From positions 128,001 through 192,000 of the IMG/VR virus record IMGVR_UViG_3300023213_000432: 64,000 nt of DNA; one strand, given 5' to 3'. Source of the DNA: a virus (taxonomy: Duplodnaviria > Caudoviricetes). Under the pieces are notes generated by a model, which searched no databases, was not told the DNA's origin, and was given only the letters and a program-made list of their open reading frames with translations. Shown one piece after another: positions 24,330-45,564 of this stretch. The stretch's first letter is position 1; the number at the start of each line of letters is the position of its first letter. The position numbers and the translations under genes were made by a program.

Positions 24330-24486
24330 GAAGCAGTTTAACAAGCCCCTTACGGGGAAGGTTTTCTGAGGATTTTTCCTTTCTCTCACGAGAGAATAAA
24401 GTCCTTGTTTTTCTATGAACAATTCCTCAAAAGGAGAATTCAATTCTTCCCACGGCTAAAGTCGTGGTCTCTTCGAACCATTTTTC
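24330..24486 (+). mobile_element. internally deleted IsrB/IscB-type IS200/IS605 remnant
   Basis: GAAGCAGTTTAACAAG-hairpin-TTTTCTGAGGA matches the omega-RNA 3' part near 39510-39560; TTCAATTCTTCCCACGGCTAAAGTCGTGG..GAACCATTTTTC|ATGA matches the element end at 40565-40616. Confidence 0.75.
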
Positions 24487-24813
24487 ATGAGTAATCGAGA
24501 AATTCTGTCCAAACTTCTTAAGAATTGGGCGCAGGATCATGATGTTAATTATAAAATTGCTGATCCTGATCCCACAGAAGAGGGCTTAAAAAAGACTGGC
24601 GGTTATCTAACTTGGGTTATTCGAAATGGACATATCAATCTGGATTTAGTGTCTCTTTTGGATAGGTTAGAAATTTTTCTAATTAATCGAGAAAAACACG
24701 CTTCTACAGCCGGATTGTTTTGCCAGAAATGTGGAACTTATTGTCCTTTGTCTGCGCCTAATCAGGAAGATGGTGGTTTTGTCTGTTATTCTTGCCGACA
24801 TCGACCTTACTAA
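24487..24813 (+). CDS. hypothetical protein with C-terminal Zn ribbon
   Basis: CQKC...CYSC. Confidence 0.6.
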   Translation: MSNREILSKLLKNWAQDHDVNYKIADPDPTEEGLKKTGGYLTWVIRNGHINLDLVSLLDRLEIFLINREKHASTAGLFCQKCGTYCPLSAPNQEDGGFVCYSCRHRPY

Positions 24814-25255
24814 TTTTACCTCTTTTGCACTTGTCAAACACATGAAAATTCTCAAACAGCGCTATAGAACTGACTGTGTTCCTACCTGTATTGCCATGAT
24901 TACCGATGTTTCTCATCGGAAAGCCATGGAGGCTACTCACCCATTTCATTTCAAAGGTATGGATTGGCGCACTGATGATCATGAAGCTGTCCATGCTTTG
25001 AAGAGGTTAGGCTGGAGAGCCAAAACCAGTTTGATCACTTTGCTCACCAAAATTAAACGCCCTGCTTTGATTATGGTGGAAGGCAAAGTTAGTTTTCGAA
25101 TAAGTGGAACGCTTTTTGATAGTGAAGACCATTGTTTTGCTTGGAATCCGAAGACTCGAGAACTAATTGATCCGTCCTTTGGAATAGGGATAGATCGAAG
25201 ATCCTTTCGGGCGTTCAAAGGGCAAGTAGCTATTGAGATTAGTCCTCGCCATTAA
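24731..25255 (+). CDS. peptidase C39-like cysteine protease (likely start 24842)
   Basis: Q....DCVPTCIAM and later H.FAW. Confidence 0.6.
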   Translation: MELIVLCLRLIRKMVVLSVILADIDLTNFTSFALVKHMKILKQRYRTDCVPTCIAMITDVSHRKAMEATHPFHFKGMDWRTDDHEAVHALKRLGWRAKTSLITLLTKIKRPALIMVEGKVSFRISGTLFDSEDHCFAWNPKTRELIDPSFGIGIDRRSFRAFKGQVAIEISPRH

Positions 25256-25282
25256 AAAATTTTTTGTTTTCTGGTCGAAAGT

Positions 25283-25846
25283 TTGGCTAAACTATTACTC
25301 AAATTCCATCAAGATATAGTGGTTGAAAAATTAGAAGTCGAGAAGAGATATTTAGTAGAGTTGCCATCTTCTTGGAGAGACTTAGCATCTATGTTTGATG
25401 GCTTGGTGGATGTAAAAAGGATTAAGCAGATTTATCTTCGTCCTGATAGTAGCGGAATATCTTCAAGAATAAGAAAAACAGTCCAAGGTTTGTTGGGCAA
25501 GATTCAAATCGTATATCATGCCAATCAAAAAGAATTCGTGGAAGCTGGAGTGCATAAAGAAACGGAACACCAAATTTCCAAAGAAGAATATGAAAAAGCA
25601 CTAGAAAAAAGGCATCCCGATAAAGTAGTGATTGAAAAGACACGTTTTGTCTTTAATTATCATGATCAGTGTTTTGAACTAGATTTATTCAAAGGAGCAT
25701 TGGGCGGATTGGCGATTTTGGAGCTGGAGTTATCCGATCAAAATCAGAAAGTAGAATTGCCGCCTTTCTTGAAGGTAATTGAAGAAATAACAGAGGATCG
25801 CAGATTTAGTAACTTTCAATTAGCCACTAAGGAGCTGCACAAATGA
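25283..25846 (+). CDS. CYTH domain (triphosphate tunnel metalloenzyme) protein
   Basis: EVEKRYLV, EKTRF, FELDLF, LAILELE. Confidence 0.85.
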   Translation: MAKLLLKFHQDIVVEKLEVEKRYLVELPSSWRDLASMFDGLVDVKRIKQIYLRPDSSGISSRIRKTVQGLLGKIQIVYHANQKEFVEAGVHKETEHQISKEEYEKALEKRHPDKVVIEKTRFVFNYHDQCFELDLFKGALGGLAILELELSDQNQKVELPPFLKVIEEITEDRRFSNFQLATKELHK

Positions 25847-25911
25847 ATTGTCGTCCAAAAGAAGTCAAGCGCCCGGTCAAGGGTTGCCAATAATCCAATA
25901 TAAAGACTATT

Positions 25912-25939
25912 GTCAATTACCAATGACTAAAGTCCTTGG
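25912..25939 (+). mobile_element. solo IS200/IS605 end remnant
   Basis: GTCAATTACCAATGACTAAAGTCCTTGG resembles the IsrB left end GTCAATAACCCATGACTAAAGTCATGGG. Confidence 0.55.
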
Positions 25940-26027
25940 AAACTGAACCGGTCAAGGATCGGCTCCCGCTGGAAACGGGCTGGTACCCGTCATAGGGTAT
26001 GGGATGCAAGCTCTCCGGTTTCCGCCA
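25938..26027 (+). tRNA. tRNA-Ser (GGA)
   Basis: Acceptor GGAAACT/GGTTTCC, G73, encoded CCA, loop CTGGAAA, long variable arm TACCC/GGGTA; T loop TGCAAGC. Confidence 0.8.
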
Positions 26028-26042
26028 ACGTTGCACTTTAAG

Positions 26043-26088
26043 GTCAATTACCCATGATTAAAATTATGGGCTTCCTTGCTTAGAGATC
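26043..26088 (+). mobile_element. 46-bp miniature IS200/IS605 derivative (single hairpin)
   Basis: GTCAATTACCCATGATTAAAATTATGGGCTTC fused to CTTGCTTAGAGATC|ATGA. Confidence 0.65.
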
Positions 26089-26178
26089 ATGATCTTTCAA
26101 TAATTTCGCATTACATCAAATATAATATTCGAGAGGTGCCCCACTAAACTAATATTCCCTCTAACTATTTACTTTGAT

Positions 26179-26523
26179 GTGGAGATCGCTATGGGCACGC
26201 CAAAATTGAAAGACCCAAATTTTTCGTTCGATGAGGAAGAACTTGATGTCCCGCTTGACATTCAAGATATTATTACCGTGTGTCGAGAATATAGCAAATT
26301 AGGATGGCATCTTCAGCGCCAAATAGAGGCAATATTAGAATTTGGAAATGTGGAAGAAGCTATTAAAATGGGACAGGTTAAAAAAGAAGCTCTGCCCCAC
26401 ATTAAGGAGTTTTTAATGGTAATATCTAATACGCACTATTTCGGTGATGCTGCTTATCAGGCTCATGATTGTATTTTTTTGATCGAACGATATCAGGATA
26501 ACCAAATATCAAGCCTCAACTAA
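26179..26523 (+). CDS. hypothetical protein
   Basis: ORF abutting the next gene. Confidence 0.55.
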   Translation: MEIAMGTPKLKDPNFSFDEEELDVPLDIQDIITVCREYSKLGWHLQRQIEAILEFGNVEEAIKMGQVKKEALPHIKEFLMVISNTHYFGDAAYQAHDCIFLIERYQDNQISSLN

Positions 26524-27027: not shown

Positions 27028-27039
27028 GGAGTATAAGTA

Positions 27040-27387: not shown

Positions 27388-28413
27388 TTACTGTGGCGTC
27401 CAAGCATTGGTCGATGAATTGAATAACCAAGTATCGTTGTAATCTTCATCATCTTTGATTCCGCCGAACAATACCGTTCGAGCCGAAAAGACATCATATG
27501 CCATTTGAGCATAGGCTCTTCGCAGAGGCACAGTTCCTGATGGAAGAATTTGCGTCCAAGTATTATTTGTAGGATTGAATACCCAAGTTTCTGCGTTATA
27601 TCCTTGGGCAGTGATTCCTCCAAACAGAATGAATAAGTTATTCCCGCTATCATACACCATGTTTGCCCCATATCTTCCGCTGGGCACCGAACTCGATAAC
27701 CCCAAATTGACACCAAGCCAAAAAGTTCCGTCAAACTGCCAAGTATCTGTCAAAAGTTCCGTTGGACCAGCACCGCCAAAAAGCAAAGTGATCGATGGGC
27801 TGCTAGCTTGAGCATGGTGCAATCTTTTGCTAGGAGCATTGGGTGGGTTCAACAAAGTCCAAGTGTTATTAGAGTGAGTCCAAGCCCACGTGCCAGCAGT
27901 ATAAGTGTTATTGGTTTGTCCGCCAAATAAGATCGCCTTCCCTATTCCAGACTGGTAAGATAGTTTAGCTGACTTTCGACTAACAGGATTAACAATAGCT
28001 CCTGTTCCATTATTAACCAGGCTCCAAGTTCCAGTAAAAGACCAAGTGTCTTGCAATGGATTTAGTTCAGCATTAGCTCCACCGAACAAAATGAGACTAG
28101 TTCCATCAAAAGACATAGAGCCATCGAACCTTCCCGATGGACCAACAATTTCATTTAATAGCACCCAGACAGAACCGTTCCAAAACCAACTGTCATTCAA
28201 AACACCATCGTTGGTGTTGTTTGTGGTTTTTCCTCCGAAAAGAACTGTTCCGATTCCCGGAAGATAGTCCATCATCCCTTGCCAACGAGGCGGAGGAGAA
28301 AAACTAAGTCCAATTCCGGGGAAAAGATCTAACCCAGATCCACTTGGGCCACCACCGGGAGGTGCGGGCGAATAAATTCCGGGTGGGAAGGTGAAGAAAA
28401 AAAGAAACATCAC
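27388..28413 (-). CDS. Kelch/galactose-oxidase-type beta-propeller protein
   Basis: Repeated LFGG...DTW.W..W and PSxR units. Confidence 0.85.
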   Translation of the reverse strand: MMFLFFFTFPPGIYSPAPPGGGPSGSGLDLFPGIGLSFSPPPRWQGMMDYLPGIGTVLFGGKTTNNTNDGVLNDSWFWNGSVWVLLNEIVGPSGRFDGSMSFDGTSLILFGGANAELNPLQDTWSFTGTWSLVNNGTGAIVNPVSRKSAKLSYQSGIGKAILFGGQTNNTYTAGTWAWTHSNNTWTLLNPPNAPSKRLHHAQASSPSITLLFGGAGPTELLTDTWQFDGTFWLGVNLGLSSSVPSGRYGANMVYDSGNNLFILFGGITAQGYNAETWVFNPTNNTWTQILPSGTVPLRRAYAQMAYDVFSARTVLFGGIKDDEDYNDTWLFNSSTNAWTPQ

Positions 28414-28425
28414 CCTACCTAAAAA

Positions 28426-30324: not shown

Positions 30325-30390
30325 AATCTGTCCTTCTTGTTAGCAATTGTTTGAATTTTGCCCATATGGCAAAATGCGAATTTATGCCGA

Positions 30391-30699: not shown

Positions 30700-30715
30700 A
30701 ATTTGATGCCCAACT

Positions 30716-31036: not shown

Positions 31037-31040
31037 AAAT

Positions 31041-32028: not shown

Positions 32029-32038
32029 GAAATAATAG

Positions 32039-33073: not shown

Positions 33074-33110
33074 ATCTACTATATATCATTACACCAATGG
33101 TTTCAACGAA

Positions 33111-34046
33111 TTACAACTGTGTCCAGTTGTTTCCGTCCCATTGCCAAGTATCAGACAACGGATTTGTGAGGTCATTTCCGCCCATTAAGATAACTTTACC
33201 CGATCCATTAGGATCCATACTCAACTGGGCTCCGACGCGACCTGATGGGCTATTGGTTGGGGACTTTTTAGTCCAGTTGGTTCCGTCGAATATCCAAGTT
33301 TCAGGCGGACGAAGACCGAAATTATCTCGACCCCCAAACAAAACGAAGCTTTTATTGACGGTGTCATAGGTCATAGCACATTCTGCGCGAACTGATGGAG
33401 ATGTGGTTGGAGAAAGCTGTGTCCATTGATTGGTAGCATCAATTTTCCAAGTATCATTCAAGAAACTGTTGCTGTTAGATCCCCCAAACATTAAAACATA
33501 GTTTAGCTGTCCGCCACCGGAAATGCCGCCCGCTATCATATGGTTGATGCGAACTGATGGTGATGTAGTTGGAGAAAGTTGTGTCCAAACAGATCCGTTC
33601 CAATTCCAAGTATCATTCAAGAAATTGAGTATATTGCTTCCACCGAACATAATGGTTCCAGTAGCGGGGCTGTATGCCAATTCATGTTTGAAGCGTCCGA
33701 AAGGCGAACCAGAGAAAGCGCCACCCACTCTTGACCAAACGGATCCGTTCCAAGTCCATGTATCCGATAAAACTCCTGCAGTTTCACTTTGTCCCCGACC
33801 TCCAAACAAAACAATGTTAGTGCCGTCAAAAGACATACCGAAATCGAGACGAAGCGGAAGAGGCCCGTTAGGATCGATTTGAGAAGTTGAGACTTGTGTC
33901 CAATCAGTTCCAGACCATGTGTAGGTCATATTCAAATAGTTAGCTTCACCCGGATAATTACCGGTATTCAATAACATAACTATACCGGTTTGACCTTTGT
34001 TGGTCATCGAAGAGTGGCTACATGCTAGTGGGCTATGTGCGGGCAT
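33111..34046 (-). CDS. Kelch-type beta-propeller protein (paralog of 27388..28413)
   Basis: Repeated FGG..DTW.W.G..W.QL.P..SPS.R. Confidence 0.85.
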   Translation of the reverse strand: MPAHSPLACSHSSMTNKGQTGIVMLLNTGNYPGEANYLNMTYTWSGTDWTQVSTSQIDPNGPLPLRLDFGMSFDGTNIVLFGGRGQSETAGVLSDTWTWNGSVWSRVGGAFSGSPFGRFKHELAYSPATGTIMFGGSNILNFLNDTWNWNGSVWTQLSPTTSPSVRINHMIAGGISGGGQLNYVLMFGGSNSNSFLNDTWKIDATNQWTQLSPTTSPSVRAECAMTYDTVNKSFVLFGGRDNFGLRPPETWIFDGTNWTKKSPTNSPSGRVGAQLSMDPNGSGKVILMGGNDLTNPLSDTWQWDGNNWTQL

Positions 34047-34149
34047 TGAGTTTCTCCAAAAAAAGTGGGGACTATCGTAATCCTATACTTAATAATTGAT
34101 AGATTTTAGATAGCTAAAATTAGGGATAAGATGATATTTTACAAAGTGC

Positions 34150-34225: not shown

Positions 34226-34230
34226 ATTCA

Positions 34231-34298: not shown

Positions 34299-34301
34299 AT
34301 G

Positions 34302-35993: not shown

Positions 35994-35998
35994 ACGTT

Positions 35999-36301
35999 AT
36001 GAAAGGAAAAAATAAAATGAATACTGAACAATTAATTAATAAACTTACCAAAGCTATTTCCTTCCAATTTAAGGAAGATAAAACGGCGCCCGGACTTACC
36101 ATTGCAGCTCTTAAAAAGGGATATTATTGTAGTGTGGTGCGCTATAATGGAGCCTTTGCCAAGGATAAGATTGTCTTTTGCCATGCCAAAGGAAAGACCA
36201 TGGATGAGGCGCTCAAAGTGGTAGCCGCCCAATTTTTGAAATCTTCGGTGAAAAAGAATCCTGTTAAAGAATTAAACGATTTGGTCAAGACATCCAAGTA
36301 A
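35999..36301 (+). CDS. hypothetical protein (likely start 36017)
   Basis: AAGGA RBS before ATG 36017. Confidence 0.6.
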   Translation: MKGKNKMNTEQLINKLTKAISFQFKEDKTAPGLTIAALKKGYYCSVVRYNGAFAKDKIVFCHAKGKTMDEALKVVAAQFLKSSVKKNPVKELNDLVKTSK

Positions 36302-36317
36302 TCTTATTTTCATAAAA

Positions 36318-36650
36318 ATGTTTAAATTCTTTGAATGGAAATATCTAGGTTATGATCCAAAAACAGATCAGTATCGATCCGAAATCACTATCGTGGATGA
36401 TGATTTTACCGAAACCCTCGTCGCCGCCTCCCCAATCGGCGGCGAAGCCGTTGTTCCACCCGCCACCACCGCCTTAATCGATATTTATTCTCGAAGAAAT
36501 CTCAATGTGGCTGGTAATCTCGTGTTGTTGATGCAAGATATAGAAAGTAAATGGCTAGACATTAAACTACAAATCGAATATTATCAAAAATATATTCCTG
36601 AATATTCAAAATATCACGATCAAGTAATGGGTTATCTAATATTCACATGA
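36318..36650 (+). CDS. dispersed paralog family protein, copy 6
   Basis: Family motifs. Confidence 0.85.
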   Translation: MFKFFEWKYLGYDPKTDQYRSEITIVDDDFTETLVAASPIGGEAVVPPATTALIDIYSRRNLNVAGNLVLLMQDIESKWLDIKLQIEYYQKYIPEYSKYHDQVMGYLIFT

Positions 36651-37162
36651 GTCTGCAAGATAAAAAACGCCTCAAGCGGATTAAAAATGACGTCATTGAG
36701 CGAGATGGAATGATTTGTTGCTACTGCGATACTGTATTGACACTCGAAACATTAACACTTGATCATATCGTTCCTGATAGCAAACGAGGAACTTTCAATT
36801 CCACTAATTTGACAGTTTCTTGTAAAACCTGCAATAATAATCGCGGGAACAAGCCATTCTTTGAATATTGTAAAAAATTCAAATTTTCCGAAGATAAAAT
36901 TAATAAGTATAAGCGACTGTATTTTAATAACCTTAAAATCAAAGTATTGAATATTGCTAAGGAAGAATGTTTAAAGAGTGATTGTGCCATTCCTAAAAAA
37001 TTGATTAATAAAGCTTGCCAGATTTTGAAAATCAAACCTATCTCGTTTGCAAATTATGAGAAGGAATACCCATTGAATATTGATTTTTCCACTTCATGTC
37101 GGAGACGGGAAATTAAATTTTGTTTTGAGCAATTAATAAGGATTATAGAAGTGGATACGTAG
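36647..37162 (+). CDS. HNH endonuclease (McrA-like)
   Basis: RDG..CCYC..TLDHIVP..NL..SCKTCNNNRG. Confidence 0.85.
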   Translation: MSLQDKKRLKRIKNDVIERDGMICCYCDTVLTLETLTLDHIVPDSKRGTFNSTNLTVSCKTCNNNRGNKPFFEYCKKFKFSEDKINKYKRLYFNNLKIKVLNIAKEECLKSDCAIPKKLINKACQILKIKPISFANYEKEYPLNIDFSTSCRRREIKFCFEQLIRIIEVDT

Positions 37163-37170
37163 GAGAGAAA

Positions 37171-37714
37171 ATGGATATTAAACCTTTAAGAGATCATGTT
37201 GTCGTAGTGAACTACCTTTGCCTAAGGGCAAAAGCTTCGCGTTTCATTGACCTAATACTACTAGCGCCTCACCGCGTTTTTGTTTAATGTCCGACTATAT
37301 TCCGTAACCAGACAGGTTTTCATTACGCTATTATGACTTGGTTTTCGTCAATCTTAGCTTAATGTTATATATCACCATATGCGTACTTTTGTTAAAATAT
37401 TTTTGAGAAAACGCATTCATCTCTCGCCTAAAGGCGAGAGTCTTCTGCTATCAATCATGATAAAAGATGCTGCCCCCGATAAAATAGCGGGAGGATTATT
37501 ATATAAGCCCGATATTGTGGAGGAAGAATTTATTACCGGAACTGTGGTGGCTATTGGTTCTGGTAAAATTGCTGCAGACGGTTCTACCGTTCATTTGGAA
37601 ATATCCATTGGTGACAAGATTGTTTTCAATAGACATGCACCAGTTAAATTGAAAATCAAAGATCAAGACTATTTAGTTCTGCGCGAAGATCAGGTATTGT
37701 GCATTTTGCCATGA
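37171..37714 (+). pseudogene. groES: co-chaperonin GroES interrupted after codon 12
   Basis: AGGAG-ATG MDIKPLRDHVVV (37171-37206), then a 250-bp insertion, then (M)IKDAAPDKIAGGLL..GTVVAIGSG..GDKIVF..LRE..VL; excision restores the frame. Confidence 0.85.
37207..37456 (-). mobile_element. non-autonomous TnpB-type IS200/IS605 element (nuclease gene deleted, both ends kept)
   Basis: Minus strand: TCAT|GATTGATAGCAGAAGACTCTCGCCTTTAGGCGAGAGATGAATGCGT ... GAAGCTTTTGCCCTTAGGCAAAGGTAGTTCAC; left end resembles 63263-63306. Confidence 0.8.
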
Positions 37715-37726
37715 TATAGTTAAGTA

Positions 37727-38677
37727 ATGGAGTTTAGTATGGATTATACATTAGATGTTGTTAGTTCTCATCCTGAGCATCAGGGTAAGACCTTTCGCAA
37801 ATACATAGTAGAGGGTATTGAAACTGTGGGAGTCGCCTATGATGAAAAATTTGAAATTCGTTTTACCAATCATACTTGGCAAAAAGTGCAAGTTAAGATC
37901 ACTTTGGATGGAATCGATGTTTTAACAGGAGAGTTAGCTACTATTGAGCCTACCAAGGATATGTGGGTGGTGCAACCTTATGGAATTTTATCGATTAAAG
38001 CTTGGCCGGAAACAGATCAAGGCGGGGCAGGTTTTGTTTTTACTCATGCCGGTAATAGTGTCGCCGTTCATACTCAAAGCGATTTGACGCATCGAGGAAT
38101 TATTGCAGCTGCGGTTTATGTAGAAGGACATATGGAACCGTTGAAGTTGAACCCTTGGGTACCCTTGGGTACTTCGCCTTATGTGTTGTATACTGGGAAT
38201 AAAATTACTTGGGTTGTTCCTAACACTTGGGTTGTTCCTAACACTTGGACATATTCTAACACTTCGACGTATCCTAACACTTTTACTATTCAAGCGCAAA
38301 ATGCTGCAAGTCTTGCATTTGGTGGTTATGGTGGTGGGGGCAATTGTTCTGCCTCTTTTTCTTGCACTGCGAATGTTCCCAATCCAACTAGCACGCAGGA
38401 TCAACAAAGCTTACCAGCGGTAGGTGCTGGACAATACACTGCGCAACAAATTACTTATTCTGCTGGATTAGTCAAACCAATGTTTTCTCAGATTATTCGA
38501 GTGAGATACCTTTGGTGGTCAGATTTGGCTAACAAGCTGGTTAATCCAACGGCAACCTCATCGCATCCATCAGGATTTCCTTCGGATACCAACGAACGAA
38601 TTAATCTTGGAGCTACTCCTATAATTGGTGAGTCTGATATGGTTACACTTTATTCTCAACCTTTTACTCGTTTTTGA
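37727..38677 (+). CDS. hypothetical protein with low-complexity middle region
   Basis: 316-aa ORF; TGATATAGT 6 nt before the ATG. Confidence 0.65.
   Translation: MEFSMDYTLDVVSSHPEHQGKTFRKYIVEGIETVGVAYDEKFEIRFTNHTWQKVQVKITLDGIDVLTGELATIEPTKDMWVVQPYGILSIKAWPETDQGGAGFVFTHAGNSVAVHTQSDLTHRGIIAAAVYVEGHMEPLKLNPWVPLGTSPYVLYTGNKITWVVPNTWVVPNTWTYSNTSTYPNTFTIQAQNAASLAFGGYGGGGNCSASFSCTANVPNPTSTQDQQSLPAVGAGQYTAQQITYSAGLVKPMFSQIIRVRYLWWSDLANKLVNPTATSSHPSGFPSDTNERINLGATPIIGESDMVTLYSQPFTRF
38210..38281 (+). repeat. four 18-bp tandem repeats (xxxxxxxxxxCTAACACT)
   Basis: Encodes WVVPNT WVVPNT WTYSNT STYPNT. Confidence 0.85.
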
Positions 38678-38705
38678 TTAATTATTTAACAAAGGAATTT
38701 TATTT

Positions 38706-38960
38706 ATGAAAAACTCAGCCACCCAAGCCAAGTTTCCATTCGAAGAAGTAGATCATGTTTTCGGAGCCCTTTTCACCGCATTTCATGTAGAAGAAAGAGA
38801 AGACCCGCACTCCCAGTTTCTGGCGCTTTGGGTGCTTTTCTTGCAATGTGCAGGATGGACAGAAGATGAATATTGGGCAGCGGTAGATGAATTGAACGAC
38901 GAAGAAGCATTAGATGACGAAGAGACATTAGAGACAAACGATAAATCAAAACAGAATTAA
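38706..38960 (+). CDS. small acidic hypothetical protein
   Basis: AAGGA RBS; 84 aa. Confidence 0.6.
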   Translation: MKNSATQAKFPFEEVDHVFGALFTAFHVEEREDPHSQFLALWVLFLQCAGWTEDEYWAAVDELNDEEALDDEETLETNDKSKQN

Positions 38961-38973
38961 ACACAATAGAACG

Positions 38974-39267
38974 ATGCCAATGATGCCAGAAAAGACTATA
39001 GTTTATCTTGTGATAGAAGAAGATCATGATCATATTGATGGTCATTGCCATCATGAAATTATTGGCGGCTTTTTTACTCAGGAAGAGGCGCTGGCGAAAT
39101 GTGCTGAGATGGAGCAAAAACAAAAAGCACGACATGCTTTGACTAATAAATTAAGGCAAGCTAAGAATAGTTTTGATGAAGAAACGAATCGTTTTTTCCT
39201 GTGCCAACTGAAGAGCGAACAGATTGTTATTTCAATTTTGCCACTCAATCTTGTCAATAACCCATGA
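38974..39267 (+). CDS. hypothetical protein; last codons supplied by the IsrB element
   Basis: Reads into GTCAAT at 39253; reconstructed empty site ends ..PLNL-M-I-stop. Confidence 0.55.
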   Translation: MPMMPEKTIVYLVIEEDHDHIDGHCHHEIIGGFFTQEEALAKCAEMEQKQKARHALTNKLRQAKNSFDEETNRFFLCQLKSEQIVISILPLNLVNNP

Positions 39268-39570
39268 CTAAAGTCATGGGCTTGTGCGAAGGATCCTAGT
39301 CAGATTCTTTTGATCAAGACTAAAATATTGTACTAGACAAAGAGAGAAGAAAGGTTATTTAACCAAACAATATTTCAAATAGGCAAATCAGGATCGTTAT
39401 GACGAGACTGGAAAAGATATGCTACTGGATGTTTCGCTAGTCTGTAGCCGCATTTCCGCAAGGAGATGCCAATACCTTATCGATAATTGTAAGGTATTCG
39501 CTGTGTTTTGCTTATGTCGAAGCGAGTTGAACAAGGCACGTAAGTGCAATTTTTGAGGAAATAATAGAAA
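39253..39570 (+). ncRNA. omega-RNA scaffold (guide would be the upstream flank)
   Basis: ~320-nt non-coding, hairpin-rich leader between the element end and isrB, as in OMEGA loci. Confidence 0.7.
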
Positions 39571-40612
39571 TTGGTTCCCGTTATCGATAACCACAAACAA
39601 CCATTAATGCCTTGCTCTGAAAAGAGAGCACGGAGACTTATGGAGAAAGGCAGCGCTATCTCATATTGGCAGAAAGGTATCTTCTGTGTCCGTCTAACCA
39701 GAGAACCTTTTAACCGAAAGACACAACCCATTGCTCTTGGCATTGATCCAGGAAGTAAAAGAGAAGGATATACTATTGCTACTAGAAAGGCAGTAGTTCT
39801 CAATATCACAACTAATACTACAGATTGGGTCAAAGATCATATTGATACTCGAAGACAACTACGAAGAACAAGAAGAACTCGTAAAACCCCCTATCGTTCT
39901 TGTCGAGAAAATAGAGCTACTTTGAGGAAAGATCGAGTTCCTCCTTCCACCAAAGCTAGGTGGAATGCTAAATTGCGAATGGTTAAATTTCTTCTGAAAA
40001 TTATTCCTATTACCATTATCAATGTAGAAGATATTGCCGCTGCCACTAAGAAAGGGCAGGCAAAGTGGAATCTTTCTTTCTCTCCTTTAGAAGTGGGAAA
40101 GGTTTGGTTCTATCAAGAAATAGAAAACCTTGGAGTTCAGCTTCTCAAAACCCAAGGACATCAAACTCAAGAAAAACGAGATCAACGAGGCTTTCAAAAA
40201 TCATATTCCAAGCTTAATTATTCTTGGAATGCTCATAACGTAGATAGCCATGTTCTTGCGGAGATAGCGATGGAAACAGAAATCCTTCCATATTATGGAT
40301 TGTGGAAAGTGGAGTTTTTAGAGTTTCATCGAAGACAACTTCATGTTCAGAATCCAATCAAGAATAATGTTAGAAAACAATATGGCACAACTATTTCTAT
40401 AGGAATGTCAAGAGGATCTGTTGTAAGATATAAAAACAAGTTTTATTATCTTGGTGGAAGTAGCAAAGGTAAAGTTTCAATTCATAGTATTATTACAGGA
40501 AAAAGAGTTAAACAATCCGTCAAAAAGAGAGATATTGACGTCTTATATACACAGAATAGGAGAGTTCAATTCCTCCCACGATTAAAATCGTGGGTCTTCT
40601 TGAACCATTTTC
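39253..40612 (+). mobile_element. IS200/IS605-family OMEGA element carrying isrB
   Basis: Left end GTCAATAACCCATGACTAAAGTCATGGGCTTG; right end CCCACGATTAAAATCGTGGG..CCATTTTC|ATGA; no tnpA. Confidence 0.85.
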
Positions 40613-40647
40613 ATGATTTGAAAAATAAGGATCATATGTATGTCTAA
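39571..40647 (+). CDS. isrB: IsrB RNA-guided nickase (IscB-like, no HNH domain)
   Basis: PLMP motif, RuvC-I GIDPG, Arg-rich bridge helix, RuvC-II VEDI, RuvC-III HNVDS; 358 aa, no HNH or Zn-finger insert. Confidence 0.82.
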   Translation: MVPVIDNHKQPLMPCSEKRARRLMEKGSAISYWQKGIFCVRLTREPFNRKTQPIALGIDPGSKREGYTIATRKAVVLNITTNTTDWVKDHIDTRRQLRRTRRTRKTPYRSCRENRATLRKDRVPPSTKARWNAKLRMVKFLLKIIPITIINVEDIAAATKKGQAKWNLSFSPLEVGKVWFYQEIENLGVQLLKTQGHQTQEKRDQRGFQKSYSKLNYSWNAHNVDSHVLAEIAMETEILPYYGLWKVEFLEFHRRQLHVQNPIKNNVRKQYGTTISIGMSRGSVVRYKNKFYYLGGSSKGKVSIHSIITGKRVKQSVKKRDIDVLYTQNRRVQFLPRLKSWVFLNHFHDLKNKDHMYV

Positions 40648-40870
40648 CTGGATTGATAGTATTAAACAAGACGGATCTTTTTGTTCTCTCATCACTTCTA
40701 CTGGTGGGGCTTGCATCTATCGACTCAGCGATCGAAAGTGGAAATGGGAGGCTCGTTCCAATGCTGTTACCTTTGTGGATGACAATAGTGGTTGCGGTGT
40801 TTGTTTGCTTAAAGATGATGCTAAGCAAGAAGCAGAGGAATGGTTGAGAGCGCACGGAGAAACTTTATGA
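40640..40870 (+). CDS. hypothetical protein
   Basis: 76-aa ORF. Confidence 0.5.
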   Translation: MSNWIDSIKQDGSFCSLITSTGGACIYRLSDRKWKWEARSNAVTFVDDNSGCGVCLLKDDAKQEAEEWLRAHGETL

Positions 40871-41091
40871 TCAAAAAGACTAAGAAATATATTCTGACTA
40901 TTGAGTTCGATACCAAGAAAGCTTGTGAATATTTTATGGAATACCTATGTGAGGCTGGCGAACAGGATTATTGGAAGAGCATGGAGTATGTCGAAGAAAA
41001 GGATACTAGCGACGGTATCACCGCGATCGATTTTGATTATGACTTTAAGAAGGGCAAGATAAAGACTGTTAGTGGAAGACTAGATAAATGA
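40840..41091 (+). CDS. hypothetical protein
   Basis: GGAG RBS before the internal ATG; coupled to the helicase. Confidence 0.55.
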   Translation: MVESARRNFMIKKTKKYILTIEFDTKKACEYFMEYLCEAGEQDYWKSMEYVEEKDTSDGITAIDFDYDFKKGKIKTVSGRLDK

Positions 41092-42581
41092 CCTCCAAGT
41101 TTCCTCCCAAGAAACCTGAGCAATATATTTTTAAACCTGCTCCGAAACACGAGTGGAACAAATGGCAGCAAGCCATCTTTAAAAATGTCAGTAGCGGGAC
41201 TGGACATACCATTATTGAAGCTTATGCTGGTTCTGGGAAAACGACGACGATTATTGAAAGTTTTCGATACATCCCTAGAGGCAAAAAGTCTATCGCACTC
41301 GCATTTAATAAAATTATTCAAGAGGAACTTCAAGCTCGCGCTCCCAACTTTATAGAAAAAAGAACATTTCATTCCATCGGGCTTCAATGTTTGAAACAAC
41401 GGTTCGGAAACATAGAGATCGATGATAACAAAGCGTTTAATATTGTCAAATCAATTTTAGATACGAATACTAATAATGATTTAATTGTCAATCTGTGTGA
41501 TGCTATTGCGTTTTGCAAATACGGATTGTTGGATACGCCAAGTCAAATTGATGATTTGATTGATCGGTTTGGAATTGATGTTTGTGATTTGCCGCGCTCA
41601 AGTTTTATCGAATTAGTTATTAAGGCATTGGGGGAGTGCAAAAGACAAACCAATATAGTTGATTTTAATGATATGTGTTATCTTCCATTCGTCCTTAATC
41701 TTCCATTAGGAAGATTTCATTTAGTTTTTATCGATGAATACCAAGATCTTAACAAAAGTCAGCTGATAATGGCAAAAAAAATGTGTGACCCTAATGGTGG
41801 AAGGATTATTGCGACCGGAGATGCAAATCAAGCGCTTTATTCATGGCGACTATCTGACACATCTGTGATGGATGAAATTAGAAAACAACCCACCACCAAG
41901 ATTCTTACACTTCCTGTTTCTTATCGTTGTCCTAAAAAGATAATCGCCTTAGCTCAACATTGGGTGCCAGACATTACTTGTCCCGATACTGCCATTGAGG
42001 GTGAAGTGCATGACATTTCTCTTAATTCTCTCTACGATAAAGCGACGCCCGGTTGTTTTATTTTGAGTCGTACTAATGCTCCTCTGATCAAGATTTGCAT
42101 GAATTTTATCAGGCTTGAAATTAAAGCTAATATTCGTGGAAGGGATGTTGGAAAATCTCTTACCTATCTCATTCGCAAATCTAAAAAAAAGAAGATGGAT
42201 GCTTTTCTTAAATGGTTAGAAGATTGGAAAAATGAGGAAGCTGATAAACTTCAAAAAAAGAATATCAATCCCGAAAATATTCTTGATCGATATGAATGTT
42301 TAGTTAATATTTGTGAAGAATGCAAAACATTGGATGAAGTAGTCAAAAAAGTGGAAGAGTTGTTCAACGATACCGATGAGAAGAATATCGTGATTATGAG
42401 CACAGTGCATAAGGCGAAAGGACTTGAAAGAGATGATGTTTTTGTGCTTCGATGGACTTTTCGGGAATGGTTGGATGAGAGTTTGCAGTTTGTAGAAAAG
42501 CCTAATGAAGAAATTAATATAGCATATGTCGCCGGATCGAGGACGTGCAAAAGGCTTTTTTTAGTCAATAAGTTCATCTAA
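41088..42581 (+). CDS. UvrD/Rep-like superfamily 1 helicase
   Basis: AYAGSGKTT, FIDEYQD, TGD..QALY.WR, SYRCP, STVHKAKGLE, YVA.SR. Confidence 0.9.
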   Translation: MTSKFPPKKPEQYIFKPAPKHEWNKWQQAIFKNVSSGTGHTIIEAYAGSGKTTTIIESFRYIPRGKKSIALAFNKIIQEELQARAPNFIEKRTFHSIGLQCLKQRFGNIEIDDNKAFNIVKSILDTNTNNDLIVNLCDAIAFCKYGLLDTPSQIDDLIDRFGIDVCDLPRSSFIELVIKALGECKRQTNIVDFNDMCYLPFVLNLPLGRFHLVFIDEYQDLNKSQLIMAKKMCDPNGGRIIATGDANQALYSWRLSDTSVMDEIRKQPTTKILTLPVSYRCPKKIIALAQHWVPDITCPDTAIEGEVHDISLNSLYDKATPGCFILSRTNAPLIKICMNFIRLEIKANIRGRDVGKSLTYLIRKSKKKKMDAFLKWLEDWKNEEADKLQKKNINPENILDRYECLVNICEECKTLDEVVKKVEELFNDTDEKNIVIMSTVHKAKGLERDDVFVLRWTFREWLDESLQFVEKPNEEINIAYVAGSRTCKRLFLVNKFI

Positions 42582-42624
42582 TTAGTCGCCCAATAAAATC
42601 GCATCTTGACGATAAGAACCAAGC

Positions 42625-43920
42625 ATGCTATTACTTCTGCTTTTCAATCCATCGGCTACTGTTTTCAATCCTATTTCACCTCTGCCGGGGCCGGAACCGC
42701 TTCCTCCTAGCGGACCTCGGTTTAGAATGGTGGGACGAGACGAAAACTCTAGTCCCACTCACTTTCGAAGCTGGGTAGTTAATGGTCAGCCCGATTTCCC
42801 CGCCGCTCTTTACGGTGGATTGAAATCCGGCATCAATCCTTTACTAGATGTCAAAGCTTATGAAATTTTCGATCCTACTAGTCCATTTGATTTTAGCCTG
42901 CCAGATGTTCTAAATTGGAACACGACCAAACGGGTGCTTCCTGCTGTTATTTCCAATTCTCAACTTGCCATTATGGATGGTTATGTTTGGTTATTCGGTT
43001 CTCAAAACTCTGCCAAGATTTGGCGAGCCCCTCTTAATAATCCCGCGGATTGGACGGATACTGGGGCTACTTTACCTAAAAACATTTCCGATAGTCAGCT
43101 AGCCGTAATCGATGGCTATGTTTGGCTATTTGGAGGTTTAACGGATGGATACACTGGGAGCGAAACTGATGAAATATTTTCTGCGCCCATTTCCAATCCA
43201 TTATCTTGGACTAATCGAGGTCATGCTCTACCCAAACCACTGTCCGCTTCTCAATTGGTGATCGTGGATGGTTACATGTATATGTTGGGCGGAAGATTGA
43301 ATTCAGGCCCCTATGATGGAATTTGGCAAGCCCCGATTACTAATCCACTAATTTGGACGGATACCGGAAAAAAACTTCCCAACAAGGTGTTCAATTCTCA
43401 AGTATGCATCACTCGTTCTGATGGATATGTTGAACTTCTGGGCGGACAACTTGATGGATATCACTTCACTGATCTTATTTATTATGCTTCCGTTTTCAAT
43501 CCAACTTCTTGGGCTGTTGCTGGAAGATTACCAGCTCAATGTGCGGGCGGACAATTTGCCCAAATAGCCGGTAAGGGATATCTCTTCACGCCTGCCAATA
43601 TTGGCGCTTCTAACACTCGTATTTTTCGGTGTGATTTCGGAACTAATCCTTTTGCTTGGGTGGATGTAGTTAATACTATTCCGGGTGAAATTTCTCAATC
43701 CCAAATAGCGATAATCGATGATAGATTATTTTTATTTGGAGGTTCGGGCAGTAGTGTGATTTTTGCTAGTGACCAAATCATCAAATATCAATTTGCCTCA
43801 CCAGCCGCTTTACAGTATGGATTTATTACTCGCACTCAAGTTTTGGGTATTGGTAATGCTAACAATTTGTTCAAAGTGCTAAGCATGCAACCTTGGAAAA
43901 CCGGATATTTAGATTTTTGA
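42625..43920 (+). CDS. Kelch-like beta-propeller repeat protein
   Basis: Repeats SQL.(I/V).DGY..LFGG...I..API.NP..W...G..LP; N-terminus MLLLLLFNP. Confidence 0.7.
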   Translation: MLLLLLFNPSATVFNPISPLPGPEPLPPSGPRFRMVGRDENSSPTHFRSWVVNGQPDFPAALYGGLKSGINPLLDVKAYEIFDPTSPFDFSLPDVLNWNTTKRVLPAVISNSQLAIMDGYVWLFGSQNSAKIWRAPLNNPADWTDTGATLPKNISDSQLAVIDGYVWLFGGLTDGYTGSETDEIFSAPISNPLSWTNRGHALPKPLSASQLVIVDGYMYMLGGRLNSGPYDGIWQAPITNPLIWTDTGKKLPNKVFNSQVCITRSDGYVELLGGQLDGYHFTDLIYYASVFNPTSWAVAGRLPAQCAGGQFAQIAGKGYLFTPANIGASNTRIFRCDFGTNPFAWVDVVNTIPGEISQSQIAIIDDRLFLFGGSGSSVIFASDQIIKYQFASPAALQYGFITRTQVLGIGNANNLFKVLSMQPWKTGYLDF

Positions 43921-43962
43921 TTTGAACTTGACAATTGTATTTTAATAATTAGGATTAGTAGA

Positions 43963-45183
43963 GTCAATCACCACCAACACAAGGTTGATGGCTTGCCGCT
44001 AACATTACTGTTGCGGCATATGGCTCATTGACCAGAGCCTGCTCCTTGTCTATCAAGGAGAGAAGTTCGCAAGCATTTTGCTTGCTCTGCTTTTCAAGCA
44101 GATAATTGTTTCGGATGTTGATAGCAGCGTTGAGATCTGCATTACTTTTAAATCCACACTTACCACAATTAAACAGAGATCTGTCCCGATTAACTTTCTC
44201 GGTATGTCCACAGTTAGAACATTTTTGGGAAGTATAGCGAGCATCTACTTTAACTATTTGCTTCCCAAGCTCTTCTGCTTTATATACCAAAAATTGTTCT
44301 AATTGGTAGAACGTCCAATTAGCAAGCCAACCGTTTAATACTTTTCCTTTCCTATGTTTTCTGATCCCTGTTAAATCTTCCAAAACGAACACATCATATG
44401 GCAAACTAACTAACCATTTGCTGATGATATGATTAATATTACGGCTGAACCGCATTTCTCGTCCGGAACGCTTTTTGAGAAGCCGTTTCGCAGAGCGAGT
44501 GCCTTTTGCCATAAGTTGTCTTTTCACAAAAAGAAACTTGCGTTTCTGCTTTCTGATCTCCCATGCATTATATTGTTGTCCGTCCGACAACGAGACGACA
44601 TTATATAATCCACGATCCACTCCAATAACTTTGTCTGATTGTTTAGTTGTCGGAGTAGAAGAGGTAAAAGTTAGGTTAGCCTTGAAGCAATTCTGTTGCT
44701 TGTTGAAGCCAATAGTAGCGGACTGAAACTTCCAACCACTGTATTTCTTAAAATAAGAAGGAATGCTAATAAGTTGGCGGATTCGTTTTCCGCTCCAAGA
44801 GAAGGAAAGAAGATTGCCCCGAAGAGAAACGGTATTCTTATTGTAGCGAATAGCGGAGTAGGGTTTTTTGATAGGCTTGAATTTAAACTTAACAGCTTTA
44901 ACCGCTTCCAAAGCCTGATCTCGAACGCTTTGAATAACACAGGATGGAATGTTAGGGAACTCTTGGCGGAGTTAACGAGTTTGGAAAGCCCATTCTACGT
45001 GTCGATTGAAGATATCGGAGCAAGTTTTTAGGTAATCGAGGAAGCCGGCGGGAACTTCAATTTTGATGGGCAGAGTTCGTTGCATTCAAAACATATATGT
45101 CATTATTGATAGATGTTGAAAGAAAAAGAAAGGGGCAGCTATTCTCATAGCACAGGACTATGGATTTCGTTGCCTAAGAGATC
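43963..45183 (-). mobile_element. IS200/IS605-family TnpB element (no tnpA)
   Basis: Right end CAAGCCATCAACCTTGTGTTGGTGGTGATTGAC; left end TCAT|GATCTCTTAGGCAACG with hairpin CATAG/CTATG. Confidence 0.8.
43964..45085 (-). pseudogene. tnpB: TnpB with an in-frame TAA at codon 38
   Basis: MQRTLPIKIEVP..FQTR*LRQEFP.. in frame with ORF 43964..44911, which has GVDRG, VLEDL, CSNCG..CGKC and ADLNAAINI. Confidence 0.85.
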
Positions 45184-45564
45184 ATGAAAGACCAAAAACA
45201 AGACCCAATAGTTTGTTATCTTGTAGTTAGAGAAAGTTTAGGAATGACTATGGGAAAAATGGCGGTTCAATGCTGCCATGGCATTCAATATGTATTGGAA
45301 GGATATTATGGTTGGAAATATACTGGACTTGGAACTAAAAGCGTCGAATTGGTGGATGACTGGATAAAGAGCGGACACCGTAAAGTAGTTCTTAAAGCTG
45401 ATGAAAAAGAATGGAAGCAATTAGAAGAATTGTCAGAAGATCATAAAGTGGTAATAGATGCTGGCCTTACTCAACTGGAACCCGGAACATCAACGGTGAT
45501 CGCATTTTTTCCGATGCGAAAGAGTCAATGTCCTAAAATTATCAAAAGATTGCAAGTATTATGA
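45184..45564 (+). CDS. pth2: peptidyl-tRNA hydrolase, Pth2 family
   Basis: LGMTMGKMAVQCCHG, RKVVLK, VIDAGLTQLEPGTSTV. Confidence 0.88.
   Translation: MKDQKQDPIVCYLVVRESLGMTMGKMAVQCCHGIQYVLEGYYGWKYTGLGTKSVELVDDWIKSGHRKVVLKADEKEWKQLEELSEDHKVVIDAGLTQLEPGTSTVIAFFPMRKSQCPKIIKRLQVL

What the first reader, a model, noticed from the sequence alone, without database searches (positions are those of the whole stretch)
24330..45187. One target motif (ATGA/TCAT) shared by IsrB, TnpB and miniature elements, often at start codons
Seen: five element ends are followed directly by ATGA (24487, 26089, 37457, 40613, 45184), and the opposite ends share GT(C/G)AA..hairpin..GCTT. IsrB and TnpB use these ends in opposite orientation. 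Two junctions are true start codons (ORF 24487, pth2). Established: IS200/IS605 elements insert next to a fixed short motif that equals the nuclease TAM; NTGA is recalled for a characterised IsrB. Inference: one TnpA family, absent from this window, mobilises both nuclease types, and the target biases insertions to gene starts and ATGA stop-start overlaps.
Basis: partly seen in the sequence, partly recalled or inferred. Interest (0 to 1): 0.72.

Follow-up and report, generated by a model that had tools for sequence, protein, structure and literature searches.

The report
IsrB/TnpB transposons sharing ATGA target
A giant phage genome carries many small IS200/IS605-type jumping elements, some encoding the RNA-guided nucleases IsrB or TnpB and many encoding nothing, and all sit just before the four bases ATGA; this matches what was published for the cyanobacterium Microcystis in 2016, so it is a clear new example and not a new system.

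Summary
All five in-window element ends are followed directly by ATGA. In the 198.6-kb phage record, 19 complete elements have flanks ATGA (16), GTGA (2) and GTAA (1); chance for 16 of 19 is about 6e-32.

The elements fall into four end-families: IsrB, two TnpB types and gene-less miniatures. All have an IS608-like layout, and isrB and tnpB point in opposite directions relative to the ends.

An intact Y1 TnpA with an overlapping TnpB lies 82 kb upstream of the window. A related phage has a TnpA+TnpB element with the same two end types and an ATGA flank.

ATGA is target, not element:
- Removing the 250-bp insert restores the GroES frame.
- The ATG starts pth2 and 8-10 other genes.
- Three ATGA stop/start overlaps are restored.

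The start-codon association equals the base rate among harmless ATGA sites (p=0.36). About 55% of this phage's genes begin with ATGA.

Shared ends, the N|ATGA target, opposite gene orientation and one Y1 transposase were published for Microcystis ISC1-1_MA/IS605B-1_MA (PMC4810608). Earlier notes of this scan describe IsrB and TnpB elements at phage start codons on other DNA.

Possibly undescribed: isrB has no stop codon of its own and borrows the target's TGA. Verdict: a new member of a known kind.

The parts
24330..24486 (-). 5'-truncated remnant of the IsrB-family element. It keeps the 3' tail of the omegaRNA region, an internal stretch and the TAM-side end with its hairpin. The GTCAAT end is missing.
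   Evidence: blastn to the 3' parts of the IsrB-less minis at genome 73647-73746, 99596-99697 and 76194-76392; end alignment.
24487..24490 (+). Flanking ATGA. Its ATG starts the ORF at 24487-24813 (108 aa, no Pfam family).
25912..25940 (-). Isolated 29-bp GTCAAT-end fragment of the B-type miniature family.
   Evidence: 100% match to genome 34387-34415 and to the B-family left ends.
26043..26088 (-). 46-bp solo-hairpin element: GTCAAT terminus, one hairpin and a ..AGAGATC terminus. It is followed by ATGA at 26089-26092, which is not a gene start here.
37171..37206 (+). First 12 codons of the GroES (Cpn10) gene (MDIKPLRDHVVV), cut off from the rest by the insert.
   Evidence: the Pfam Cpn10 match of the downstream piece begins at profile position 12.
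37207..37456 (-). 250-bp gene-less miniature of the family of the 63375 TnpB, inserted inside GroES. The GTGAAC end is at 37207 and the TAM-side end at 37456.
   Evidence: [quoted passage not shown]
37457..37714 (+). Remainder of GroES. It starts with the flanking ATGA (codons Met13-Ile14) and is in frame with 37171-37206 once the insert is removed.
   Evidence: an uninterrupted 95-aa homologue, P0123, fits this spacing.
39233..39252 (+). Predicted guide segment of the IsrB omegaRNA (flank 5' of the element).
   Evidence: Inference from the known IscB/IsrB omegaRNA layout (10.1101/2023.03.14.532601; PMC9581776); coordinates.
39253..39545 (+). omegaRNA (HEARO-type) scaffold. It begins exactly at the element's first base.
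   Evidence: Rfam RF02033, 23.1 bits, E=0.01, full model 1-211, below the gathering score of 83. Consensus fold of 10 copies gives 72 pairs, 20 with compensatory changes, and GUCAAU pairs with GUUGAAC.
39253..40612 (-). Complete IsrB element (1360 bp). It is one of four full copies in the record.
   Evidence: Four-copy alignment: similarity starts at GTCAAT and stops after ATGA; coordinates.
39571..40647 (+). isrB ORF (TTG start). It has PLMP and the RuvC motifs GIDPG, NVEDI and HNVDSH, and no HNH. A 1-nt deletion near the end makes it read 35 nt into the flank.
   Evidence: PF14239, 132 bits; DtIsrB structure 8DMB, E=7e-32.
40613..40616 (+). Flanking ATGA, the predicted 3' TAM of IsrB. It is not a gene start at this site (ATG ATT TGA).
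43963..45183 (-). Complete TnpB-only element (1221 bp), with the GTCAAT end at 43963 and the ..AGAGATC end at 45183.
43964..44911 (-). tnpB ORF (315 aa) with RuvC motifs GVDRG, VLEDL and NADLNAA and a CxxC..CxxC zinc finger. Its TGA stop lies inside the terminal ATTGAC.
   Evidence: PF07282, 87 bits; 35% identical paralogue at genome 100332-101273.
45184..45564 (+). pth2 gene. Its ATG is the flanking ATGA (TCAT is the predicted 5' TAM of the TnpB on the other strand).
   Evidence: PF01981. Relative L003 has the Kelch gene followed directly by pth2, with no TnpB between them.
63263..64000 (+). Left part of a fourth-family TnpB element, which runs to about 573 bp beyond the window end. Its left-end hairpin is decayed and the flank at 63259-63262 is TCCT, not TCAT.

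Best explanation
The region holds ordinary non-autonomous IS200/IS605-superfamily elements living in a jumbo phage genome. There are IsrB elements (the ISC1 type), TnpB-only elements (the IS605B type) and gene-less derivatives (PATE-like miniatures and solo-hairpin scars).

A Y1 (HUH) TnpA excises the top strand, which here is the minus strand for 18 of 19 copies. It cuts 3' of the flanking TCAT, about 18-19 nt before the left-end hairpin, and after ..TTGAC/..TTCAC, 8 nt past the right-end hairpin. It reinserts the circle 3' of another TCAT without target duplication. On the plus strand this reads GTCAAT..element..|ATGA.

The same tetranucleotide is the target-adjacent motif (TAM) of both nucleases. 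For IsrB, the omegaRNA starts at the GTCAAT end, the guide is the upstream flank and the TAM is 3' ATGA. For TnpB, the omegaRNA runs out through the GTCAAT end on the other strand and the TAM is 5' TCAT. Either nuclease can therefore recognise the empty donor joint and have the element copied back.

ATGA contains ATG and TGA, and about 55% of this phage's genes start with ATGA. The insertions that survive selection therefore sit mostly at gene starts and stop/start overlaps.

Shown here: the anatomy, the copy catalogue, TnpA presence, ATGA being flank, and omegaRNA structure conservation. Inferred: which TnpA acts, nuclease activity and TAM, and homing.
For: - Nuclease genes: Pfam identifies IsrB and two TnpBs. 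The catalytic motifs are intact.
- Copy catalogue: 4 full IsrB copies, 3 IsrB-less minis that keep the omegaRNA, 4 TnpBs and 1 TnpA in the record.
- Boundaries: similarity among copies starts at GTCAAT and stops right after ATGA.
- End layout: flank | 16-19 nt (18-19 in most families) | 4 nt | 8-bp hairpin. This matches IS608, with its cleavage site 19 nt from the hairpin foot and a 4-nt guide tetranucleotide beside the foot (PMC3201880).
- The TnpA element has TTAC with AAAG, exactly the IS608 pair. The last flank base tracks the last base of the guide tetranucleotide: T with A in families A, C and D; C with G in family B and the TnpA element.
- ATGA is flank: GroES is restored in frame, pth2 and other genes keep their start codons, and three ATGA overlaps are restored.
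- omegaRNA: the HEARO hit starts at base 1 of the element, and 20 covarying pairs occur across 10 copies.
- Other phages: the same ends are followed by ATGA or GTGA, and one carries a TnpA+TnpB element with these ends.
- Literature: N|ATGA with shared ends for ISC1-1_MA and IS605B-1_MA, supported by empty sites (PMC4810608); IsrB TAM NTGA (PMC9581776); one TnpA serving TnpB, IscB and PATE families with TAM equal to target (10.1101/2023.03.14.532601); a host IsrB element seen to jump into cyanophage Mic1 at ATGA (PMC11237433).
Against: - No nucleotide-level empty site for any copy of this phage was found.
- The phage's own TnpA element has a TTAC flank and a CCAACGAC hairpin, not CCCACGAT, so trans-mobilisation by it is not shown.
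- Copies differ by 6-19%, so the insertions are old and some are decayed: the 24330 remnant, the 63375 TnpB left end, and the frameshifted window isrB.
- The second flank base (C) is not explained by the simple IS608 pairing rule. Two ends break the last-base covariation: the solo element at 26043 (a possible G.T wobble) and one copy in another phage.
- For the GroES insert, similarity among the three family copies runs 6-7 nt past the proposed boundary (TTTATC), so that boundary is less certain.
Confidence: 0.85

Rival explanations
1. ATGA is the last four bases of the elements, not a target motif. Its constancy would then be trivial, and the true target would be unknown.
For: Alignments alone cannot separate a conserved flank from a conserved terminus. 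TC|ATGA forms the palindrome TCATGA at most junctions.
Against: - Removing ATGA with the insert would put a TAA stop into GroES.
- pth2 and 8-10 other genes would lose their start codons.
- Flanks vary (GTGA, GTAA) while the neighbouring terminus is kept.
- Empty sites in Microcystis place ATGA outside homologous elements (PMC4810608).
Confidence: 0.03
2. The elements were or are moved by a host-encoded TnpA during infection, or they are now immobile fossils kept only by nuclease-driven homing between co-infecting phages. On this reading the phage TnpA serves only its own TTAC-flanked element.
For: - The phage TnpA element differs in flank (TTAC), guide tetranucleotide (AAAG) and hairpin sequence.
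- Copies are 6-19% diverged.
- Related phages G002 and G004 carry IsrB/IscB genes but no TnpA.
- A host IsrB element has been seen to jump into a cyanophage (PMC11237433).
Against: - A conserved 20-mer of this omegaRNA lineage matches 4 viral contigs and none of 185,579 bacterial species genomes. IsrB relatives were found in viral contigs but not in genome contigs. A host source is therefore not visible.
- Family B uses TTAC and TCAC flanks with the same hairpin type as the TCAT families.
- Phage G003 has a TnpA inside an element with these very ends.
Confidence: 0.3
3. The elements actively target translation start sites, for example single-stranded DNA exposed at highly transcribed gene starts, and do not simply target ATGA.
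For: 9-11 of 19 insertions sit on a predicted start codon, against 11% of all plus-strand ATGA sites (p=8e-5).
Against: - Among ATGA sites that do not break a gene, 52% are start codons; 9 of 15 observed gives p=0.36.
- Three or four copies lie inside ORFs, including GroES, and five are intergenic or in gene tails.
Confidence: 0.08

Closest known systems
ISC1-1_MA (IscB1 = IsrB) and IS605B-1_MA (TnpB-only) of Microcystis aeruginosa NIES-843 (Kapitonov, Makarova & Koonin 2016, PMC4810608)
   Same: - 5'-GTCA terminus.
- Insertion at N|ATGA without target duplication.
- IsrB and TnpB elements share a terminus and the target.
- tnpB lies antisense relative to iscB.
[quoted passage not shown]
   Different: - Here the elements reside in a jumbo phage, not a bacterial chromosome.
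- The TAM-side terminus ends ..TTTTC or ..GATC, not ..CG.
- Four end-families plus solo-hairpin scars coexist.
- Sequence relatedness to the Microcystis copies was not tested.
ISGst1-5 of Geobacillus stearothermophilus (Meers et al. 2023, bioRxiv 10.1101/2023.03.14.532601)
   Same: - One TnpA serves several TnpB and IscB families and PATEs.
- The IscB omegaRNA lies at the right end, with its guide outside the element.
- The TAM equals the transposase target; the GstIscB TAM is TTCAT.
- The nuclease cuts the donor joint so that the element is retained.
   Different: - That system was tested experimentally; here everything is inferred from sequence.
- The nuclease here is IsrB, a nickase without HNH, not IscB.
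- The setting is a phage.
IS608 of Helicobacter pylori (PMC3201880)
   Same: - Y1 HUH TnpA with overlapping tnpB.
- Cleavage site 19 nt 5' of the left hairpin.
- Right cleavage site a few nt 3' of the right hairpin.
- A 4-nt guide tetranucleotide at the hairpin foot. The phage's TnpA element even has the IS608 pair TTAC/AAAG.
   Different: - Most copies here use TCAT.
- The right cleavage site is ..TGAC, 8 nt from the hairpin, where IS608 has TCAA at 10 nt.
Desulfovirgula thermocuniculi IsrB with omegaRNA (PDB 8DMB; PMC9581776)
   Same: - PLMP-RuvC-bridge helix architecture without HNH (E=7e-32 over residues 2-281).
- A roughly 300-nt omegaRNA upstream of the gene.
- TAM NTGA; ATGA was cleaved in vitro.
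   Different: About 35% identical or less. The C-terminal TAM-interacting domain could not be aligned, so R323 and Q326 equivalents are unverified.
Host IsrB element insertion into cyanophage Mic1 gp49 (PMC11237433)
   Same: An IsrB element, with about 207 bp upstream and 59 bp downstream, landed in a phage genome at ATGA.
   Different: That was a single, gene-disrupting laboratory event. Here there are at least 19 long-resident copies, mostly at gene boundaries.

Membership tests
IS200/IS605 superfamily (Y1-transposase, single-strand 'peel and paste' elements) | A Y1 HUH transposase (TnpA, PF01797) is available in the genome. | tested here: met
   141 bits at genome 45433-45786(-). The 131-aa ORF has HVH and a C-terminal YIENQ tyrosine, and overlaps a 364-aa TnpB. 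It lies outside the window.
IS200/IS605 superfamily (Y1-transposase, single-strand 'peel and paste' elements) | Subterminal imperfect hairpins at both ends and no terminal inverted repeats. | tested here: met
   8-bp hairpins lie 8 nt inside the GTCAAT end and 16-19 nt inside the other end (18-19 in most families). The two ends are not inverted repeats of each other.
IS200/IS605 superfamily (Y1-transposase, single-strand 'peel and paste' elements) | Insertion next to a fixed 4-5 nt motif flanking the left end, with no target-site duplication. | tested here: met
   19 complete copies have flanks ATGA (16), GTGA (2) and GTAA (1). The left and right flanks are unrelated to each other.
IS200/IS605 superfamily (Y1-transposase, single-strand 'peel and paste' elements) | Precise excision restores the empty site (empty-site alleles). 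| tested here: inconclusive
   Only indirect support. The GroES frame, start codons and three ATGA overlaps are restored in silico. Relative L003 lacks the TnpB before pth2 but is too diverged to show the junction. No empty allele was found in metagenome contigs.
IS200/IS605 superfamily (Y1-transposase, single-strand 'peel and paste' elements) | Strand-specific insertion, seen as an orientation bias. | tested here: met
   18 of 19 copies share one orientation (p=7e-4 against the ATGA strand distribution; p=0.013 against non-disruptive sites). Co-orientation with genes is an alternative cause.
IsrB (ISC1) OMEGA nickase elements | RRXRR/PLMP N-terminus, a split RuvC with D/E/D, and no HNH insert. 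| tested here: met
   PF14239, 132 bits, and no HNH family reported. Motifs GIDPG, NVEDI and HNVDSH are present, and 8DMB matches at E=7e-32.
IsrB (ISC1) OMEGA nickase elements | A structured omegaRNA (HEARO) directly upstream, starting at the element end. | tested here: met
   RF02033 aligns over the full model from base 1 of the element, but at only 23 bits against a gathering score of 83. The consensus fold has 20 pairs with compensatory changes.
IsrB (ISC1) OMEGA nickase elements | RNA-guided nicking that depends on a 3' NTGA TAM. | not testable with these tools
   Inferred only from the ATGA flank and PMC9581776. The TAM-reading residues could not be aligned.
TnpB (IS605B-type) elements | TnpB with a RuvC triad and zinc finger, with its 3' end and omegaRNA at the right end. 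| tested here: met
   PF07282, 87 bits. Motifs GVDRG, VLEDL and NADLNAA and CxxC..CxxC are present. The stop codon lies inside the terminal ATTGAC. The omegaRNA itself was not modelled.

The most novel reading that the evidence does not exclude
This phage-borne IsrB lineage may be built for seamless insertion into tightly packed phage operons.
- isrB carries no stop codon of its own. It ends on the TGA (or a junction-spanning TAA) of the target, as seen in I65, I111 and I114 and in two other phages (L004, L005).
- Ribosomes finishing IsrB would therefore sit on the ATG of the displaced downstream gene and could restart it.
- The GTCAATAACCCATGACTAAA terminus closes all three reading frames within 20 nt, so the upstream gene is ended cleanly.

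On this reading the NTGA/TCAT target is favoured because it coincides with start codons and ATGA overlaps. The lineage would circulate among jumbo phages rather than their hosts.
Probability: 0.3. Interest if true: 0.6.

Novelty: new member of a known kind. Interest (0 to 1): 0.36.

Why it matters
The finding adds no new principle. Shared ends, the N|ATGA target, opposite nuclease orientation and a common Y1 transposase were described in 2016, and the equality of TAM and target was shown experimentally in 2023.

Its value is as a compact natural test bed. One phage record holds an autonomous IS605, four IsrB copies, three further TnpBs, guide-RNA-only miniatures and solo-hairpin scars. These make up 5.8% of the sequence in 19 complete copies.

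Related copies occur in several other large phage contigs, and none was detected in bacterial reference genomes by the limited searches run. The record could serve to test:
- trans-mobilisation of several end-families by one TnpA;
- IsrB acting in trans on orphan omegaRNAs;
- RNA-guided homing between co-infecting phages;
- whether a target that doubles as stop and start codon makes insertions translationally neutral.

Tried and rejected
- Sequencing runs: none was listed for window 36000-45300, so no read-level excision joints or expression data could be obtained.
- Exact-protein look-ups for pth2 and ORF 24487 found nothing on record.
- megablast of 12 kb against GenBank phages found no match.
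- Empty-site patterns for the GroES and IsrB sites found no match in metagenome contigs.
- IsrB relatives and the omegaRNA 20-mer found nothing in genome contigs. These searches detect only close or exact matches.
- Alignment of the IsrB C-terminal TAM-interacting domain to DtIsrB failed with a single sequence, with the C-terminal piece alone and with a 20-sequence profile. R323 and Q326 equivalents are therefore unknown.
- Rfam found nothing in 25800-26150. The 102-nt GC-rich stretch at 25941-26042 folds no better than shuffled sequence (z=-0.04).
- IStron or group-I-intron reading of the GroES insert: rejected. No Rfam intron match was found at gathering thresholds, and the insert is a TnpB-family miniature in antisense orientation.
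- Loss of a Shine-Dalgarno site as a cost of insertion: not pursued. Only 44% of predicted genes have even a 4-nt Shine-Dalgarno-like match, against 21% of random sites.
- The Weinberg 2009 HEARO paper and Altae-Tran 2021 are not held.
- One search was a mis-specified local pattern search of no value.

Full report
**Setting**

The window is bases 128001-192000 of a 198,652-bp IMG/VR virus record that CheckV rates 46% complete, so it is a jumbo phage. The protein collection lists its proteins on a 327-kb contig. Genome coordinates below equal window coordinates plus 128000.

**Observation**

Pfam identifies an IsrB (RRXRR, 132 bits; window 39571-40647, +), a short TnpB (43964-44911, -) and the start of another TnpB (63375-, +). 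Reading the five named junctions shows element ends at 24486, 26088, 37456, 40612 and 45183, each followed by ATGA.

A self-comparison of the whole record gives 19 complete elements with both termini, in four end-families:
- **Family A (IsrB type).** Four full copies of about 1360 bp, three 450-460-bp miniatures that keep the omegaRNA but not isrB, and three 46-47-bp solo-hairpin forms.
- **Family B.** Three 350-360-bp miniatures and one solo form.
- **Family C.** Two TnpB elements and two roughly 400-bp miniatures.
- **Family D.** One 250-bp miniature, plus a decayed TnpB element and a third copy.

On the plus strand every complete copy starts GTCAAT (GTGAAC in family D). The base before it varies. 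Every copy ends ..TC or ..TTTT(C/A).

The next four bases are ATGA in 16 copies, GTGA in 2 and GTAA in 1. Chance for 16 of 19 is about 6e-32.

Related ends in other phage contigs are followed by ATGA in 13 cases and GTGA in 2. One 354-kb contig holds eight such copies with unrelated flanks.

**Is ATGA flank or terminus?**

No nucleotide-level empty site could be obtained. Four indirect lines agree that ATGA is flank:
1. The 250-bp insert at 37207-37456 splits a Cpn10/GroES gene. The 12 codons MDIKPLRDHVVV (37171-37206) join in frame to MIKDAAPDKIAGG.. (37457-). The Pfam match of the downstream piece starts at profile position 12. If ATGA left with the insert, a TAA stop would follow.
2. The uninterrupted homologue P0123 has 13 residues between RD and KIAGG. 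The ATGA-retaining join gives 12; a join that removes 9 more bases gives 9.
3. In a reconstructed 'empty' genome, the flank ATG is the predicted start codon at 9-11 of 19 sites, pth2 included. The classic ATGA stop/start overlap is restored at three sites.
4. For the homologous Microcystis elements, cross-strain empty sites place ATGA outside the element (PMC4810608).

One caveat concerns family D. Similarity among its three copies continues 6-7 nt (TTTATC) beyond the boundary, so that boundary is less secure.

**Architecture and transposase**

Read on the transposase top strand, each left end has this order: flank tetranucleotide, then 16-19 nt (18-19 in most families), then 4 nt, then an 8-bp hairpin. 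The right end is a hairpin followed by 8 nt ending ..TGAC or ..TCAC. This is the IS608 plan: a cleavage site 19 nt before the hairpin, read by a 4-nt guide sequence at the hairpin foot (PMC3201880).

An intact TnpA (131 aa, with HVH and a YIENQ tyrosine) overlapping a 364-aa TnpB lies at genome 44.3-45.9 kb. Its left end carries TTAC with AAAG, the IS608 pair.

Across families, the last flank base follows the last base of the foot tetranucleotide:

| Family | Foot tetranucleotide | Flank (top strand) |
|---|---|---|
| A | GAGA or AAGA | TCAT |
| C | GATA | TCAT |
| D | AAGA | TCAT |
| B | GAAG | TCAC or TTAC |
| TnpA element | AAAG | TTAC |

There are two exceptions, one of which could be a G.T wobble. 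The second flank base is not explained by this rule, so I treat the covariation as suggestive only.

In a complete 188-kb phage (G003), a TnpA+TnpB element has a GTCAAC..hairpin..GCTT terminus on one side. On the other side it has an A-type hairpin end followed by ATGA, and that ATG starts a 201-aa ORF. A Y1 transposase that uses exactly these ends therefore exists in this phage group. Whether the G000 TnpA moves families A-D remains an inference.

**Nucleases and guide RNAs**

The IsrB has PLMP and the RuvC motifs, lacks HNH, and matches the DtIsrB structure 8DMB at E=7e-32.

Rfam HEARO aligns over its whole model, starting at the element's first base. The score is only 23 bits, below the gathering score. 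A consensus fold of ten copies, including the three IsrB-less miniatures and three from other phages, has 72 pairs, 20 of them with compensatory changes. The terminal GUCAAU pairs with GUUGAAC near the 3' end. The transposon terminus is therefore also the closing helix of the guide RNA.

Following the published layout (10.1101/2023.03.14.532601; PMC9581776), the window copy's guide would be 39233-39252 and its TAM the ATGA at 40613. The 43964 TnpB has an intact triad and zinc finger. Its TAM would be TCAT on the minus strand.

**Start codons**

Against all plus-strand ATGA sites, of which 11% are predicted gene starts, 9 of 19 is a clear excess (p=8e-5). However, 155 of 279 predicted plus-strand genes begin with ATGA. 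Among ATGA sites that break no gene, 52% are therefore start codons, and 9 of 15 observed is unremarkable (p=0.36). The gene calls come from a crude longest-ORF caller, so these numbers are approximate.

The association thus follows from the motif plus purifying selection. Three or four copies do sit inside ORFs.

Orientation is biased: 18 of 19 copies point the same way (p=7e-4 against the ATGA strand distribution; p=0.013 against non-disruptive sites). This fits strand-specific insertion. It also fits the need for read-through transcription from the upstream gene.

**A detail that may be undescribed**

isrB has no stop codon inside its element:
- In copies I65 and I111, and in two other phages (L004, L005), the stop is the TGA of the flanking ATGA.
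- In I114 it is a TAA that spans the junction.
- The window copy has a 1-nt deletion and reads 35 nt further into the flank.

The GTCAATAACCCATGACTAAA terminus has a stop in each frame within 20 nt. ORF 38974-39267 ends on one of them. PMC4810608 contains neither 'start codon' nor 'stop codon'. Whether the overlap gives translational coupling is untested.

**Comparison with what is known**

The interpretation reproduces Kapitonov et al. 2016 for Microcystis ISC1-1_MA and IS605B-1_MA: a GTCA terminus, the N|ATGA target, a shared end, antisense tnpB, and the same or related Y1 transposase. It also reproduces Meers et al. 2023 for Geobacillus: one TnpA, TnpB plus IscB plus PATE families, and TAM equal to target. 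A host IsrB element has been seen to enter cyanophage Mic1 at ATGA.

Earlier notes of this scan report the same features in other windows of this genome. They also report IsrB or TnpB elements at phage start codons in other genomes. I re-derived the in-genome points independently before reading those notes.

**Verdict**

This is a new member of a known kind, in a phage setting with unusually many copies.

Noticed in passing
whole record (reconstructed without the elements): About 55% (155 of 279) of predicted plus-strand genes start with ATGA, far above base composition. The gene caller was crude (first ATG of the longest ORFs).
   Followed up: partly
window 37171-37714: The phage GroES/Cpn10 gene is interrupted after codon 12. 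The called product (P0122, 111 aa) replaces the first beta-strand with 26 element-encoded residues. It is unknown whether it still functions.
   Followed up: partly
genome 53781-53827, 54750-54795, 122088-122133; window 26043-26088: 46-47-bp elements made of one hairpin with both termini. They are most simply scars of recombination between the two near-identical subterminal hairpins.
   Followed up: partly
window 25941-26042: A 102-nt GC-rich stretch lies between a B-family end fragment and the solo element. It has no Rfam match and no fold signal (z=-0.04). Its origin is unknown.
   Followed up: yes
window 22246-23310(-) and 55361-56371(-): Two LAGLIDADG homing-endonuclease genes (PF14528, PF03161), so the phage also carries protein-guided homing elements.
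   Followed up: no
window 27388-28413(-), 33111-34046(-), 42625-43920(+): Three Kelch-repeat beta-propeller proteins.
   Followed up: no
window 5715-6061, 11186-11808, 19758-20526, 36292-36651, 50773-51466, 59401-59714, 62547-62949: A repeated family of genes of about 110 aa, seen as self-blast hits. Other readers noted a hypervariable segment in it.
   Followed up: no
L004-L006, L032 (viral contigs) against genome contigs: A conserved 20-mer of this omegaRNA lineage occurs in 4 viral contigs and in none of 185,579 bacterial species genomes. Close IsrB homologues sit on contigs of 100-470 kb.
   Followed up: partly
G001 (354-kb phage contig), loci L010, L013-L016, L018, L020, L021: Another jumbo phage has at least 8 gene-less copies with the same end type, all followed by ATGA. 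It has one TnpA and no IsrB.
   Followed up: partly
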